A DNA stretch of 64,000 bases. Origin: Nitrospiraceae bacterium. Lineage in GTDB: Bacteria; Nitrospirota; Nitrospiria; Nitrospirales; Nitrospiraceae. Position numbers: made by a program. Numbering within the stretch: the stretch's first letter is position 1; each line of letters starts with the position of its first letter. This document shows, piece after piece, positions 30,001 to 42,000 of this stretch. The stretch is taken from positions 30,911-94,910 of the forward strand of contig JBFWWG010000014.1 in the NCBI GenBank assembly GCA_050246315.1. The letters are read 5' to 3'.

Positions 30001-33000
30001 GAGCAGCAGGCCGTTGAAATCGAGCTGCTTCTCCGGCGAAAACCAGGACCACTGCCACACGTTCGGAAGAATCGGTTTCAACATGGCATGATGTCGGTCG
30101 CTTACCCCAGTGTGGCCACGGCGTCCCGCACCATCTTCGTCACCTTGGCGCGGATGTCCTGTTCCGCTGCCAGATCGATGATGTCGTCCTCCGGCACCGT
30201 GATGAATTTGCGCGAAGTTCCCTTGGTGAGAGAGATCAAGAACAGGCTGTTTGACGAAGTCGTCGGAATCACAACCTGAACCCCCGCATCGACATCCCGC
30301 ACAAGCTCAAGAAACTGTTGTTTCCCCTCATCCATCTCGCTCATGCAGTTCCTTTCGCTCCGGTCGGTCGAGGGTACCTCACCACGATACTCAGACTCCA
30401 CCACCGGCCAACAGCTTCTCGACCTCCTGGAGAATCACATCGGCGCCGGCCAAATCCATATTTCCCACACGTTGCCAGCGAATCACTCCTTGCGGATCAA
30501 TGACGTAAACGTTGGGGATGAACTTGCCTCCCCCGTACAGCTTGTCCGTGACCTTCTTGGGATCGAGCAAATAGGGGTAGGTGACCTTGACAGGAAACTG
30601 GGTCAGGAACTCCGCCACATCATTCTTGGAGTTTCCCGAGGAGTTCACCCCGATCACGGCGACGTTCTTGCCATTGGTCGCCTCATGGACCTTCTGTAGA
30701 TTCGTGCCCTGCATCAAGCAGGGTTCGCAGATATGAAACAGACCCAGCACGACGACTTTTCCCTTGAGCGCATCCAAACTCACCGCCTCGCCAGTGATCG
30801 AGGTAAGTGAAAACGCCGGGGCCTTCTCGCCGACCTTGAACAATCCGGCGGCTAACAACGGATGCGCGGCAACGATCGAGAATAGAACCACGCTCAGTAT
30901 GAGGGCGATACGTCTCATGGCAGCCTCCGATCTGAAGAAGTGATGAGTTCTGCAGGCTGGAGCCTTCCAACTCAACACTCACACCTCCACGCTCGGCACT
31001 CCGATGAGGGCTATCCTACCATGCAGTTTTTTTCCGGAGCAATGGCGACAGGGCGGGGCGGAGCAGGCGCTGCCGCAAGAAAAGGGAATGATCGGTTATC
31101 AGTCGGCTTGTATCCATCGTCCGATCGCACGACGGACGGCTGGTAGCGGCATGCACGTGCAGATCACGGCTCGCAGGAATCGAATTGCTCGGTTCAGCCG
31201 CCGCAAGTGCGGCTTCCAGCGAAACCACGAAGGTGGTCGGGCAACAACTGGATGATCAGCATGGCACAGCGCCAATCCATACCGCCACCGATCCCACCAA
31301 TCGTCCTTCAGTGTGAAATAGAGCGCCGCTCCATCGTGCTCATCAATACCGTGTTGTGTCTGGGCCAGCAGACTCTTCGGCATGCGTTCCGCCAACTCCG
31401 GGATTTCAAATTCCGAAGAGACTGCGCTCACAATTTCGGATGGCAGGGAGATGCTCATCACCCGATGAGCAAGACTCAACCCAAGCAGAAGCATCCTGCG
31501 ACAGTTCCACTTCTCTGCCGTGGCGAAGACGCGCGCCCAATCCAATCGTTTCGCGCGGACCAGTTCGGCAACGTCAACGATCCACTTGAGACGCTCCCAG
31601 GCATGCTTCGAACCATGCACGCACAAAATATTCAACAATTCCTCAGGGGCGAGGGTCTCAACCTGTTGACCATCGATCGGGACGCGAATACGCCGATCCC
31701 ATACATCCGCCCGGTCCAGACGAAATGAAAAGTGTTGGTGTGCCATGACCCATTGCAAATCGACGAGTATGCGGCTCTTTTCGCCCAAAAACAGATGATA
31801 CGGCTGATCAAAGTCTGACACCTGACATTCGTCTTGCGAGGGATTCAGTGGGCGGTACCCCTGCGACAGCAAGACATCTCTGGCATCCGACAACCGGGAC
31901 TGCGGCACGATAAAATCCAGATCATCGAAGTCCCTCAGATTCCTATCCTCGTAGGCCATGATTCCCAAGGTCACGCCTTTGAAAGACACGACCGGCACCC
32001 CACTCTCGTTAAAGGCTCGGCAGAGTCGCACCAGCTCTTGCGCCAACACGCGATTCAACAGCGTGCCCACCAAAGTGGACCGGCGCAGCGCACCGAGCGA
32101 CGCCTGGGGTACCAGGTCGTCGCAGACCGTACCGATCGTCCGAGACACCAGCGGTCCTACCCCGTGGTAGCGGGCGAGATCCAGCACGAACGGCCAGTCC
32201 ATCGGCTGTTGCGCCGCTTCTCGGATACGACGCCCCACCGCCTCACTCACGGTCGTACGTGCGCACAAGATGACGAACCGGGCTTCCGGAAACCATGTCG
32301 GCGGCAGACGGGTTCCCTTGTCGAATATCGGGACCTCGCTAGGCATGACCGACATGGCTTGTGCGCGCATCATCCTTTCCTTTCGAGCGGCATCGTGACG
32401 GCTCCGAAGGCTTCCACGAAAGGACGGAAATACAGGTGGCTCACCTTCCTGAACTCACGAGCCACAGGTTCCTGCAGCCCGACTCGAAGAGGTTCCCGGA
32501 CTTGGGGTACGTACAGGGTCCCGAACAACACATCCCACACGGCCAGTTTGACGCCAAAATTCCTGTTCACGTGTTGAGGATCGACACTGTGGTGGATCTG
32601 ATGCATGACGGGACTGATAAACAAGCGGCTGACGACGGGGCCAAACGACACCCAGAGGTGTGAGTGATGCCAATGATGACCCAAGAATCCCAGTGCAAAG
32701 GTGATCACGCTGATGCCGAAGACCATGGTCAATTCCATGTCGTGGGGGACGAGGTTTTGGGAGAAGACGGAGGCCATCCCGAGGAACGGAGCCTGCAAGA
32801 CGGCCGGCAGCAGGAGTTCCACCGGATGCGCCCGATAGGCGGTGATGGGAGTCAACACTTCGGCCGAGTGATGCACTCGGTGGAACGCCCATAGCACGGG
32901 AATCTTGTGAAACAAGACATGTGTCAGATAGTTCACGAGATCGTAGACGACAAAGAACCCCGCCGCGACGGCAAACAGCGCAGTGGGCGGCAGGGTTCGG

Positions 33001-39000: not shown

Positions 39001-42000
39001 TGGATTGTTGCAAACGAACCAAGAAGTACGGGGCGGCGGTCAGCACCAGGATCGGGATGACCGACCAATGCAGCCACCAGAGAATCGCGGCCATCGCCAA
39101 CAAGGAGATTCCGTCTTGCCCGAGCTGTAGGAGCGAGTTGAGGATCGCCGTCGGTCGGTGCGGCGCTTCCTGTTGCGCACGATGCAGCGTGTCTTGATAC
39201 CGGGCGTTCTCGTAGTACTCCAGGTCCACCTCAACAGACTTCGCCTGGAGGATCGCGTGCATGTGGTCCGTGACCACTTGTGCCTGAATGCGGGAAATCA
39301 GCGAGGCCACGACGGTGAGCAGCGCGCTCGCGACAGCGACGCCGGCCAGCATGCTGAGAATCATGGTAATCGAGGTCGGCATCGATCGGCTCGACGGTTC
39401 CGTGATTCCCTGCGTAACGGCATCAATCAGCAGCTTTGTCAAATAGAGCACCGCGAGAGGCAGGAGGCCCTGGACCACACGTACGGCGATACTACCCAGA
39501 GCCCATGTGGGACTGCTCTGCCAGACAAAAGAGAGCGCAAGGCGAAGGGTTGCGAGGAAGGGTCTCAGACGTTCCCAGGACTTGTACAACACAGACTTGG
39601 ACGCGGGCGGTTGCGACGATGGGCTCACGCTAGCCATGAGCCGGTTTCTCGATTGCCTTCTCCCGGTAAGGATCGAACGGATAGGAAAAGGTCACGGTAT
39701 ATTGTTGCCATTGGCGTGAGGGCTCTTGAAACGGATGGCCATCGAGCGTGAGCCAGGCATGTCCGTCCAATGTTCCCTCCTCCCTCCTCACGCCGCAATG
39801 AAGTCGGACGGGTAACCCCGCTTGTCTGGCACCTCGATACAGGACCACGGAGCGAGGAAAACAACTGCCCTTCGTATTGTAGGGAAAGAGGAGGAGCCAA
39901 CGGTCGACGTAGTGGACAAGATCCTCGACCGGTGTGTGCGCGCCTTCCGTCAAACCGGGTTGAGGCTCCAACAGGCTCAGCACCGTTGGCAGACTCAGAA
40001 AGCGCAACAAGATCCGAACCCAAAGGACGAGCAGACCCACACGGCATACCGTCCAATACTTGGACACCCATCGCGTCATGGTTTGCTCAGTGTATCAAGC
40101 CACCATGGGAAATCCAGTTTTCGCGCGTTCTGTTAGGGGAATGACCGGGCCAGCGGCTAGGAGGATTCGAACAGCCCCAGCTGCATCTCTTCGGCTTTGG
40201 TGAAGGGAATCGGATAGCGGTCCGTGAAGCAGGCCGAACAGTACCGTTCCGCCGAGCCCGGCGCAGCCTTGAGCATTCCGTCCAAGCTCAAGTAGGCGAC
40301 ACTGTCGGCCGTCACATACTTGCGGATCTCTTCGACCGTGTGGCTGGAGCCGATCAGTTCTCGCTTGGTCGGCGTATCGATTCCATAGAAACAGGGCGCG
40401 ACAATCGGCGGCGAGCTGATCCGCATGTGGACTTCCTTCGCGCCGGCGCTCCGGAGCATCTTGACGATCTTGCGGCTGGTCGTCCCCCGGACGATGGAAT
40501 CATCCACGACGACTACGCGCTTTCCCTCCAACACCTCCGGAATGGCGTTGAGCTTCACCTTCACCCCGAAGTGCCGGATGGATTGTTCCGGCTCGATGAA
40601 CGTCCGTCCGACATAGTGGTTCCGCATCAGCCCGGTTTCGAACGGAACACCCGATCCTTCCGAATACCCGAGCGCGGCCGGCACGCCGGAATCCGGAACC
40701 GGTATCACCAGATCCGCCGCGACCCAGGCTTCCTGCGCCAGTTGCCGGCCGAGGGCCTTTCGTATCTGATAGACCGCATGCCCGCCCCCGAAAATCCTGC
40801 TGTCCGGCCTGGCGAAGTAGACGTATTCGAAGACACACATTGCCGAATTCGATGGGGCGAACGGACGATAGCTGGCGACCTTCTTCTCGTTGATCACAAC
40901 CAGTTCACCGGGCTCGATCTCCCGAACATACTCGGCGTCCAACAGATCGAAGGCGCAACTCTCGGAGGCCACGATCCAACTATCTCGTACCTGCCCCAAG
41001 CAGAGCGGCCGAAATCCGTGGGGATCGCGCACTGCCATCAACCCTTCGTCTGTCATGAGCACGAGCGAGTAGGCGCCCCGCACCTGGCTCAAGGCATCCA
41101 CCACTCGCGCGAGCAGCGTATCCGCCCGCGAATGGGCGATCAGGTGGATGATGACTTCCGTGTCGGAGGTGGATTGAAAGATCGCGCCGTAGGCCTCCAG
41201 CTCATTGCGCAACATCTGCGCGTTGATCAGATTGCCGTTGTGGGCAAGCGCCAGATTGCCCAGGGCGAAATTCACCGTGAGGGGCTGAACATTCTTGAAA
41301 TCGCTGCCGCCGGCAGTCGAGTACCGGTTGTGCCCGATCGCCACGTGGCCGGGAAGCTGAGCCAATACCGATTTGGAATAAATATCCGCGACGAGCCCCA
41401 TCCCCTTTTGCAGATAGAAATGCTGCCCGTCCGAGGACACGATGCCGGAGGCTTCCTGTCCACGATGTTGCAGTGCGTACAGCCCGAGATAGGCCAGATT
41501 GGACGCCTCGGGATGATTGAACACACCAATGACGGCGCACTCGTCGTGAAATTTGTCGGGCGTGACGATCGGTAAGTCTTTCATATCACTGTGGGGCGAG
41601 CGCCCGTTCGACCGCATGGGCCCAGGCGTCATGCAACGCCTCGACCGGAAGATCGATCCGGCAAGGCACCGATGAATCGACCGGAAGCTCGATCACAAGG
41701 CGGTTGCCTCCGACCTTCCCGATCACGGCTGCCGGGACCCCGGCCTCCTCAGCGGTGTGCATCACGAGATCGCGATGCTCCGGCGTGACGGAGAGGACAA
41801 CACGAGACTGGCTCTCGCCGAACAATTGAGCGTCTCGTCTGATGAATTGGGAGCGAGGCAATTGTATCACAGCACCCAACCGAACCCCAGGGGAGGAAAT
41901 GCAGCACTCCGAGAGGGTCACGGCGAGACCTCCGTCCGAACAGTCGTGAGCGGACCGAATCAATCCCCCCCGAATCAACCCGAGCAGGCAAGTCTGCAGC

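What a model noticed while it worked through the whole genome (the two positions that open the first line are those of the whole stretch)
31099..40079. Graspetide 'group 39' cluster is built on a lasso-peptide chassis: lasso-type leader, B1 (PqqD) and B2 peptidase, with t [...]
The cluster g03674-g03682 encodes a 44-aa precursor (g03677, MESQQKESYAEPVLMTHELLRDITG|QKYREKTSDKVNDKAGSES) whose leader carries the lasso recognition motif YxxPxL and Thr at -2. It also encodes a PqqD-type RRE (g03678), a lasso B2-type cysteine peptidase (g03682, NCBIfam equivalog), an HPr-kinase-like protein (g03676) and an NTP_transf_5 protein (g03674). That is the accessory set of the genome's true lasso cluster on C2, but there is no Asn-synthetase-type cyclase. 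In its place are two diverged ATP-grasp ligases (g03679, g03680; 25% identical). The Lys/Glu/Asp/Ser/Thr-rich core (KYREKxSDKxxD) fits side-chain macrolactam/lactone formation. This RiPP family therefore looks like a lasso pathw [...]
Evidence so far: Gene tables and Pfam at a relaxed cut: Hpr_kinase_C E 4e-6 for g03676, plus PqqD and RimK. g03680 is a distant paralogue of g03679. g03674/g01201 and g03678/g01197 are paralogous. Precursors are conserved beside the ATP-grasp in 8 of 9 related loci (none within 1.5 kb in L014), in 1-3 tandem copies, with leader ..ESYxEPVLxxHELLRD(I/V)TG. The ATP-grasp was found in 19 of 401 Nitrospirota genomes.
(Added by a program. Inside this text positions count along the whole contig: contig position 30,911 is position 1 of the stretch shown here. 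"Call 12" and the like, gene names such as g00115 and contig names such as C1 are that model's own, and its searches are not shown. The text may have been shortened before it was handed on; [...] marks where a part breaks off. The agent that wrote the report below was given it as the finding of a first reader that could run no searches.)

Follow-up and report, generated by a model that had tools for sequence, protein, structure and literature searches.

The report
Ring-forming enzyme recruited via adaptor protein
A bacterial peptide-making cluster, already catalogued, seems to carry the docking tag for its ring-forming enzyme on a separate leader-binding helper protein instead of on the peptide, an arrangement so far predicted from sequence only.

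Summary
The genes are real and the cluster belongs to catalogued graspetide group 39. The chassis (RRE, B2, HPr-type kinase, NTP transferase, YxxPxL leader) also occurs in Nitrospira relatives with neither cyclase nor ATP-grasp, like the LPP family. The genome's C2 lasso cluster has no B2. The second ATP-grasp looks catalytically dead.

The new point is the RRE's N-terminal motif PFITAELRPDL (F[IV]x4RP). It sits beside this ligase pair in 56 of 59 fully flanked loci. In relatives it lies on the K/D/E-rich substrate itself, as leader or follower, including on proteases and a contractile-injection protein. Here it has moved onto the RRE. All 39 RREs directly behind the ligase and read intact carry it; none of the 35 other RRE hits does. 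Natural ligase-motif-RRE fusions and motif-RRE-leader-core fusions exist.

Best model (0.6): the RRE is an adaptor that binds the lasso-type leader and docks the ligase in trans. The ligase would close KxxD/E lactams (K2-E5, K6-D9, K10-D13), and B2 would then cut the leader. No binding or chemistry is shown.

The parts
39630..40079 (-). Lasso-B2-type cysteine leader peptidase (149 aa); Cys73 and His107 invariant, Glu119 where a lasso B2 has Asp; the genome's only B2
   Evidence: (NF033537 46.5 > 33)
37769..39637 (-). ABC exporter (622 aa), membrane plus ATPase domains, no peptidase domain hit
37161..37673 (.). About 513-bp GC-rich non-coding repeat inserted between the ABC gene and the ligase pair; five more near-full copies at 89-97% in the genome; not part of the pathway
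   Evidence: loose ends at 37161 and 37673
36040..37011 (-). Degenerate ATP-grasp ('grasp2', about 323 aa from the GTG at 37011; the longest ORF starts at 37059). Full-length graspetide-synthetase fold, but lacks the equivalents of K115, R195, the DYR loop, D255 and E268/N270; probable pseudo-enzyme partner
35196..36095 (-). Intact graspetide synthetase ('grasp1', 299 aa); K115, K155, Q184/Q186, R195, DYR214-216, D255, E268 and N270 invariant, R72 and D171 nearly invariant; closest solved structure 7DRM (PsnB)
34696..35154 (-). RRE/PqqD adaptor (152 aa): disordered N-terminus with the docking motif, two-helix spacer (32-63), RRE domain (66-150)
35110..35142 (-). Motif PFITAELRPDL (residues 5-15 of the RRE; family form F[IV]x4RP), proposed ligase-docking tag
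34615..34689 (-). Precursor leader (25 aa) with YxxPxL, His at +9 and Thr at -2 of the predicted cut
34555..34614 (-). Precursor core QKYREKTSDKVNDKAGSES with three tandem KxxE/D units (K2-E5, K6-D9, K10-D13); the cut site is predicted, not shown
33414..34460 (-). HPr-kinase-like protein (Walker A intact), probable peptide kinase
32370..33407 (-). Membrane fatty-acid-hydroxylase / sterol-desaturase family protein with His boxes; seen only in ligase-bearing loci; role unknown
31099..32373 (-). NTP_transf_5 nucleotidyltransferase

Best explanation
This is an RRE-dependent graspetide pathway built from two modules. Module 1 is a cyclase-less lasso/LPP-type chassis: RRE, B2 peptidase, HPr-type kinase, NTP transferase and exporter, acting on a YxxPxL...T(-2) leader. 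Module 2 is an ATP-grasp pair (active grasp1 plus pseudo-enzyme grasp2) that recognises a short tag, F[IV]x4RP. In most relatives the tag is on the K/D/E-rich substrate itself. Here it is on the N-terminus of the RRE. Inferred steps: (1) the RRE domain binds the precursor's leader; (2) its tag docks on the ligase pair, probably at the acidic helix D170/D171 of grasp1, and activates it in trans, with a spacer of about 63 aa placing the core at the active site; (3) grasp1 phosphorylates Glu/Asp and closes i to i+3 lactams K2-E5, K6-D9 and K10-D13; (4) the kinase, NTP transferase and hydroxylase tailor the core (position 3 is Ser or Tyr); (5) RRE-assisted B2 cuts after Thr-Gly and the ABC transporter exports the product. 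Shown: gene content, residues, distribution of the motif and the fusions. Inferred: every binding and chemical step.
For: Motif beside the ligase pair in 74 of 107 loci with a strict pattern, against 0 of 107 on the reverse strand and 0-4 in 20 shuffles. With a relaxed pattern: 91 of 114 loci, 5 of 114 on the reverse strand, and 56 of 59 fully flanked loci, split as 30 on an RRE, 14 N-terminal and 12 C-terminal on a K/D/E-rich protein. Out-of-sample: 7 of 10 new loci exact, 1 variant, and 2 distant hits (32-35%, no grasp2 hit) without it. Complementary distribution: 39 RREs carry the motif and all lie directly behind grasp1; the 35 other RRE hits lack it (one of these, L038, is a motif RRE broken by an assembly fault), including all RREs in the 13 ligase-less loci. 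Cores behind the ligase hold 128 KxxD/E units in 61 distinct cores (shuffle mean 30, maximum 42); cores behind short RREs hold 2 in 22 and those in ligase-less loci 0 in 18. Motif residues are invariant in 24 of 24 Nitrospira genes despite synonymous changes, while residues 20-29 vary. Five ligase-motif-RRE fusions, two named as cyanobacterial. Motif-RRE-leader-core single chains P0187 and P0214, and P0189 with a variant motif. The motif precedes the RRE in 52 of the 150 best 50%-identity clusters, mostly at a spacing of 60-67 aa. grasp1 keeps the PsnB R72, R213 and DFR equivalents and aligns D170/D171 with the MdnC leader-binding E191/D192 (residue mapping counted by hand). Precedents: KxxE lactams and a ligase inactive alone (PMC12848669); a graspetide leader works when moved to the C-terminus (PMC13003496); partner-dependent synthetases (PMC13097080).
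Against: There is no biochemistry at all. Loci are not independent: the three motif positions track three clades of the ligase tree, several loci are near-copies, and the profile used contained the motif. Three fully flanked loci lack the motif in the window searched (L028, L085, and L105, where it lies just outside), and L040 has no RRE or motif downstream. L041 has a lasso-type precursor directly behind the ligase with no RRE between (short contig). In the cis substrates the K-to-acid spacing of 3 is rare (31 against 337, 226 and 211 for spacings 1, 4 and 5), so KxxD/E is not a family-wide rule and the ring assignment rests on Nitrospira alone. Five of 61 cores behind the ligase have no KxxD/E. 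Which subunit binds the motif is open, since grasp2 also has invariant acidic residues (D90, Y93, E97). The triple fusions are singletons and could be read-through errors.
Confidence: 0.6

Rival explanations
1. The ligase binds the precursor directly (leader or acidic core). The RRE serves only B2 and the kinase, and the motif on it is a relic of an ancestral precursor gene into which the RRE was inserted, or merely activates the ligase without tethering.
For: The RRE gene stands where motif-bearing precursor genes stand in other loci, directly behind grasp1. In PsnB the core contributes to binding (bioRxiv 2021.03.09.434688, passages). L041 shows a precursor directly behind the ligase.
Against: Protein-level conservation of the motif, near-constant spacing across 48 separate clusters, retention inside the ligase-RRE fusions, absence from ligase-less RREs, and the same leader on precursors that have no ligase.
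Confidence: 0.15
2. The ATP-grasp pair does not close intramolecular rings. It ligates amino acids or cross-links chains through the K/D/E tract (RimK-like tagging or intermolecular isopeptides), which would suit long low-complexity tails on enzymes and injection-system proteins.
For: Cis substrates are long K/D/E repeats on M6, S8 and trypsin-like proteases, tyrosinase and DUF6519, unlike most characterised graspetide cores. grasp1 is below the curated cut-off of every graspetide NCBIfam model. No member is characterised in what I read.
Against: The best family and structure hits are graspetide synthetases, far above RimK. The DYR loop and R195 are invariant. Strict KxxD/E spacing in short exported cores.
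Confidence: 0.13
3. One reading: a lasso cluster like the one on C2 lost its cyclase and gained two active ATP-grasp ligases in its place.
For: Lasso-type leader, B1-like fold and B2; HprK and NTP_transf_5 in both clusters.
Against: A cyclase-less, ligase-less chassis is common in relatives. Chassis RREs are far from lasso B1s. Identities to the C2 proteins are 23-33%. grasp2 is degenerate in all 30 aligned. C2 has no B2. The direction of change is not rooted, so a remote lasso ancestry of the chassis stays possible.
Confidence: 0.1

Closest known systems
Graspetide group 39 (Carter et al. 2026, PMC13097080)
   Same: Same synthetase pair and precursors; the supplement lists a precursor one residue different. 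The main text notes a transglutaminase-fold protein.
   Different: The main text and readable tables do not mention an RRE, a lasso leader, the motif or a pseudo-enzyme for this group; one row lists the RRE's N-terminus as a candidate precursor. The SI PDF (Figs S2-S20, Table S4) could not be read and may show the PqqD gene.
Graspetide group 32 (same paper)
   Same: Sister clade of the same ligase pair; many listed precursors are K/D/E tracts followed by F[IV]x4RP.
   Different: The motif is a follower on the substrate and there is no RRE or B2. The paper reads the neighbouring proteases as maturation or resistance genes, whereas here they carry the tract and motif themselves.
Linear polyphosphorylated peptides, LPP (Popov et al. 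2026, PMC13381572)
   Same: Cyclase-less RRE + HprK + NTP transferase + MsbA-like exporter; leader YxxPxVLxHQxIxFETxxS in register (Tyr1, Pro4, His9, Thr16); Ser3 of the core is phosphorylated. Ser is at core position 3 in 22 of 22 short-RRE cores of ligase-bearing loci.
   Different: LPPs use a signal-peptidase-like protease and have no ATP-grasp. This cluster uses B2, adds the ligase pair and a hydroxylase, and has Tyr at position 3.
Paeninodin-like lasso peptides
   Same: B1, B2, HprK, NTP transferase and a [Y/W]xxP leader with Thr(-2).
   Different: No macrolactam cyclase here, and the core begins with Gln and is K/D/E-rich.
Microviridin / myxomiditide ligases (MdnB/C, MyxF/D1/D2) and PsnB
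   Same: Paired ATP-grasp genes, KxxE lactams, a subunit inactive alone, and an acidic leader-binding helix.
   Different: Their recognition motif (PFFxRFx) is on the precursor. No RRE or B2 is involved, and there is no TxKxPSD core here.
LPL proteins of graspetide branch 5 (Makarova et al. 2022, PMC8939145) and MirC (PMC13097080)
   Same: Earlier suggestion that a small partner carries a leader-like motif missing from the precursor; a synthetase that needs a partner with a weakly RRE-like domain.
   Different: Different families. Neither has a true lasso-type RRE with a tag that is cis on substrates elsewhere in the same ligase clade.

Membership tests
Graspetide group 39 | Synthetase and precursor fall in the published group | tested here: met
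   Precursor one residue from a group 39 row and same leader as the other Nitrospira rows; the SSN itself was not recomputed
Graspetides | ATP-grasp ligase with ATP-binding residues, Arg213 equivalent and D(F/W/Y)R loop | tested here: met
   grasp1; not met by grasp2
Graspetides | Core with conserved donor and acceptor residues | tested here: met
   KxxD/E 128 in 61 cores against shuffle maximum 42
Graspetides | Side-chain ester or amide rings in the product | not testable with these tools
   Needs MS or NMR
Graspetides | Ligase-recognition motif on the precursor | tested here: not met
   The clade's motif is on the RRE, not on this precursor
Lasso peptides | Asn-synthetase-like cyclase in the cluster | tested here: not met
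   PF00733 hits over cut-off lie on other contigs
Lasso peptides | RRE (B1) and YxxPxL leader with Thr(-2) | tested here: met
   the cut site is predicted only
Lasso peptides | B2 cysteine peptidase with catalytic triad | tested here: met
   NF033537 over cut-off; Cys73 and His107 invariant, Glu119 instead of Asp; triad assignment recalled
LPP family | RRE + HprK + NTP transferase + exporter without cyclase | tested here: met
LPP family | Signal-peptidase-I-like leader peptidase | tested here: not met
   The only peptidase found in the cluster is B2
LPP family | Ser3 of the core phosphorylated | tested here: inconclusive
   Position 3 is Tyr here; Ser in 50 and Tyr in 36 of 103 related precursors; LppK did not accept S3Y

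The most novel reading that the evidence does not exclude
This ATP-grasp / pseudo-ATP-grasp pair is a portable, tag-directed side-chain cross-linking system. Any polypeptide with a K/D/E tract and an F[IV]x4RP tag at either end is a substrate, including folded proteases, tyrosinases and contractile-injection proteins. Group 39 is the case where the tag was captured by a lasso-type RRE, giving a natural in-trans leader adaptor and an RRE-dependent graspetide, a lasso/graspetide hybrid that chemists have so far built only by engineering.
Probability: 0.45. Interest if true: 0.85.

Novelty: new variant of a known kind. Interest (0 to 1): 0.72.

Why it matters
In the characterised graspetide pathways I read about, the ligase reads a motif on the precursor. 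If the model holds, nature has moved that motif onto a leader-binding adaptor, so one leader type can be routed to different chemistry by swapping RRE paralogues; several Nitrospira loci hold both short and tagged RREs. It would explain how RiPP pathways recombine, give a plug-in way to aim a macrolactam ligase at any RRE-bound peptide, and reassign the 'neighbouring proteases' of group 32 as substrates, extending graspetide chemistry to folded proteins. It makes exact, cheap predictions: the rings, the motif deletion and the dead second subunit.

Tried and rejected
Complex prediction of grasp1 + grasp2 (1-296) + RRE residues 1-32 gave no answer: score 0.18 against a mark of 0.32, controls not folded. 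It counts neither way. The AF2 model of the natural fusion P0099 folded the ligase well but left linker and RRE under pLDDT 50-65, so it says nothing on docking.

RNA-library contigs from four studies cover parts of the cluster. In X1 and X5 the contigs over about 34.4-35.0 kb (precursor and RRE 3' end) have much higher word depth than the rest, and X6 looks like DNA. Contig depth cannot rank genes, so this is not used.

Rfam found nothing in 30.5-40.5 kb. A plasmid search with the fusion gave only two distant hits. Group 33, also described with a transglutaminase fold, has unrelated archaeal rows in the part read. The third PqqD of the genome is an ordinary PQQ gene. The idea that C2-type lasso clusters generally borrow this B2 was rejected: 9 of 9 orthologous cyclases have their own adjacent B2 and none of those genomes has the close ligase. 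Earlier findings of the scan: none returned. The careful tree did not finish, so the quick tree was used.

Literature searches for a prior description. None showed an RRE-borne graspetide motif. The library lacks most subscription papers, and the group 39 SI PDF was unreadable.

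
Full report
OBSERVATION. The finding's coordinates are window coordinates. On the minus strand lie, in order: B2 peptidase (39630-40079), ABC exporter (37769-39637), grasp2 (36040-37011), grasp1 (35196-36095), RRE (34696-35154), precursor (34555-34689), HPr-kinase-like (33414-34460), fatty-acid-hydroxylase family (32370-33407) and NTP_transf_5 (31099-32373). 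B2 passes the NCBIfam lasso B2 cut-off and keeps Cys73 and His107, with Glu119 where a lasso B2 has Asp. The RRE model matches lasso B1 structures best. No Asn-synthase cyclase is in the window. The 'group 39' paper is PMC13097080. I read section 7, passages, SI file 1 and parts 373, 374 and 378 plus searches of SI file 2; the SI PDF was too large to read. Its main text says only that groups 33 and 39 contain a transglutaminase-fold protein, and its table lists a precursor one residue from ours.

(1) The C2 lasso cluster has B1, cyclase, precursor, a PRMT-like methyltransferase, HprK and NTP_transf_5 but no B2. The genome's only B2 is in this window, whereas 9 of 9 orthologous cyclases in relatives have B2 directly upstream (L128). 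Shared proteins of the two clusters are 23-33% identical. (2) grasp1 keeps all hallmark residues (K115, K155, R195, DYR, D255, E268, N270) and is closest to PsnB, E 9e-22 (PsnB residues from passages of bioRxiv 2021.03.09.434688). grasp2 has the full fold but lacks these residues in all 30 aligned sequences. (3) The chassis does not need a cyclase or a ligase. B2 was found in 58 of 401 Nitrospirota genomes. Of the 48 B2-positive genomes taken further (with 20 B2-negative ones), 10 have B2 beside this ligase, 10 beside a cyclase and 30 have a B2 beside neither, two genomes counting twice. I opened 13 of the 30. All hold a short RRE, a precursor with the same leader, HprK and NTP transferase, 6 of them at the same purF site as this window; one (L116) has a distant Asn-synthase-like hit 4 kb away. 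This resembles the LPP family (PMC13381572: abstract, section 6 and passages), whose leader is in register with ours and whose core Ser3 is phosphorylated. Position 3 is Ser in 50 and Tyr in 36 of 103 distinct related precursors. In a small tree, tagged and short chassis RREs group together, far from the two lasso B1s (82 columns, weak inner support).

THE NEW ELEMENT. The RRE has about 65 extra N-terminal residues that begin MSRQPFITAELRPDL. A second ligase pair in the same genome (C11, 44% identical) follows a contractile-injection-like operon whose DUF6519 protein ends in a K/E-rich stretch and the same motif. Across loci, a strict pattern was found beside the ligase in 74 of 107, against 0 of 107 on the reverse strand and 0-4 in 20 shuffles. 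The relaxed F[IV]x4RP pattern, set after looking at the misses, was found in 91 of 114, against 5 on the reverse strand. Among the 59 fully flanked loci it was found in 56: 30 on an RRE, 14 at the N-terminus and 12 at the C-terminus of a K/D/E-rich protein. Some loci are duplicates or near-copies. Hosts include stand-alone repeat peptides, M6, S8 and trypsin-like proteases and a tyrosinase. The C-terminal type matches the paper's group 32. Ten loci fetched afterwards, five from scans of 401 and 301 genomes of two other phyla and five from Nitrospira, gave 7 exact, 1 variant and 2 distant ligases without motif or grasp2 hit. In a quick tree of 84 ligases the three motif positions largely follow three clades, with support 88, 95 and 96; the tree is unrooted.

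WHY AN ADAPTOR. The distribution is complementary. Cis hosts carry tract and motif together; in the RRE type the RRE has the motif and no tract, and the precursor has the tract and no motif. All 39 tagged RREs lie directly behind grasp1. The 35 other RRE hits lack the tag; these include two lasso B1s, one tagged gene broken by an assembly fault, paralogues upstream in the same loci and all RREs of ligase-less loci. Cores behind the ligase carry 128 KxxD/E units in 61 distinct sequences (56 with at least one, 31 with tandem units; shuffle mean 30, maximum 42). Cores behind short RREs carry 2 in 22, and those of ligase-less loci 0 in 18. Motif residues are invariant in 24 of 24 genes with up to four synonymous codons, while residues 20-29 vary. 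The motif survives inside five ligase-RRE fusions, two named as Nostoc and Gloeotrichia. It precedes the RRE in 52 of the 150 best 50%-cluster representatives and in 48 of the 62 with a long N-terminus, usually 60-67 residues ahead (the profile included the motif). P0187 and P0214 join motif, RRE, leader and K/D/E core in one chain, and P0189 does so with a variant motif. Four of ten tagged RREs looked up share their contig length with a ligase homologue, which suggests but does not show co-location outside Nitrospira. AF2 gives a disordered first 30 residues, two helices and a folded RRE. By hand count on the alignment, grasp1 D170/D171 match MdnC E191/D192, named as leader-recognition residues in PMC12848669 (passages).

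MECHANISM AND LIMITS. Most likely the RRE binds the leader, its tag docks and activates the grasp1/grasp2 pair, grasp1 closes K2-E5, K6-D9 and K10-D13 lactams, the kinase, transferase and hydroxylase tailor the core, B2 cuts after Thr-Gly and the ABC protein exports the product (0.6). All of these steps are inference. Against: relatedness inflates every count; L028, L085 and L040 lack the motif nearby and L041 lacks an intervening RRE; spacing 3 is rare in cis substrates; the binding subunit is unknown. Rivals are a vestigial or merely activating motif (0.15), non-ring chemistry (0.13) and a literal cyclase swap (0.1).

WHAT IS KNOWN. The cluster is catalogued. Moving a graspetide leader to the C-terminus and building lasso/graspetide chimeras has been done by engineering (PMC13003496: abstract and passages). 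KxxE lactams and a ligase inactive alone are known (PMC12848669). Partner dependence is known for MirC, and Makarova et al. raised a leader-like motif on LPL partner proteins (PMC8939145: passages; supplements listed, not read). Passages of PMC10885120, PMC12710340, PMC7470986 and PMC12670281 gave the Thr(-2) rule and no RRE-graspetide link. Searches showed no description of this motif or of an RRE-borne graspetide tag; closed journals and the unread SI PDF may hold one. Verdict: a new variant of a known kind, interest 0.72.

Noticed in passing
L002:6395-12288 (G000 C2): The genome's lasso cluster lacks B2, although 9 of 9 orthologous clusters have it just upstream of the cyclase. It is either defunct or borrows the only B2, in this window. 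It also has a PRMT-like methyltransferase.
   Followed up: partly
L001:688-10029 (G000 C11): A second ATP-grasp pair follows contractile-injection-like baseplate genes; the DUF6519 protein ends in a K/E tract plus the docking motif, suggesting a modified structural protein.
   Followed up: partly
window 37161-37673: A GC-rich non-coding repeat of about 513 bp with five more near-full copies in the genome, inserted inside the operon; no Rfam hit; present at this site only in L003 among the loci held then.
   Followed up: partly
L109-L118, L125-L127: A cyclase-less, ligase-less RRE/B2/HprK/NTP-transferase cluster with Ser at core position 3 or 4 in most cores, common in Nitrospira relatives; an LPP-like family that uses B2.
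   Followed up: partly
window 32370-33407; L009, L012, L016: A fatty-acid-hydroxylase-family membrane enzyme occurs only in ligase-bearing loci, sometimes twice and each behind its own precursor. One search found no RiPP precedent.
   Followed up: partly
L009:2422-14224; L015; L016; L019: Up to six precursors with one leader but different cores (KxxD/E, CxxC, Cys-bridged types) and two or more RRE and kinase paralogues share a single B2.
   Followed up: partly
L025, L055, L067, L078, L092, L101, L137, L141, L142: Proteases and a tyrosinase directly upstream of the ligase pair carry K/D/E tails followed by the motif; L142 has two such proteins in tandem.
   Followed up: partly
P0163, P0200, P0252, P0247: Fusions of the tagged RRE to a kinase-like C-terminal part (by eye; no Pfam hit) and of NTP_transf_5 to an RRE.
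   Followed up: no
L118, L119, L120: An extra ORF of about 560 aa starting with an oxidoreductase-like glycine motif lies inside these clusters; not scanned.
   Followed up: no
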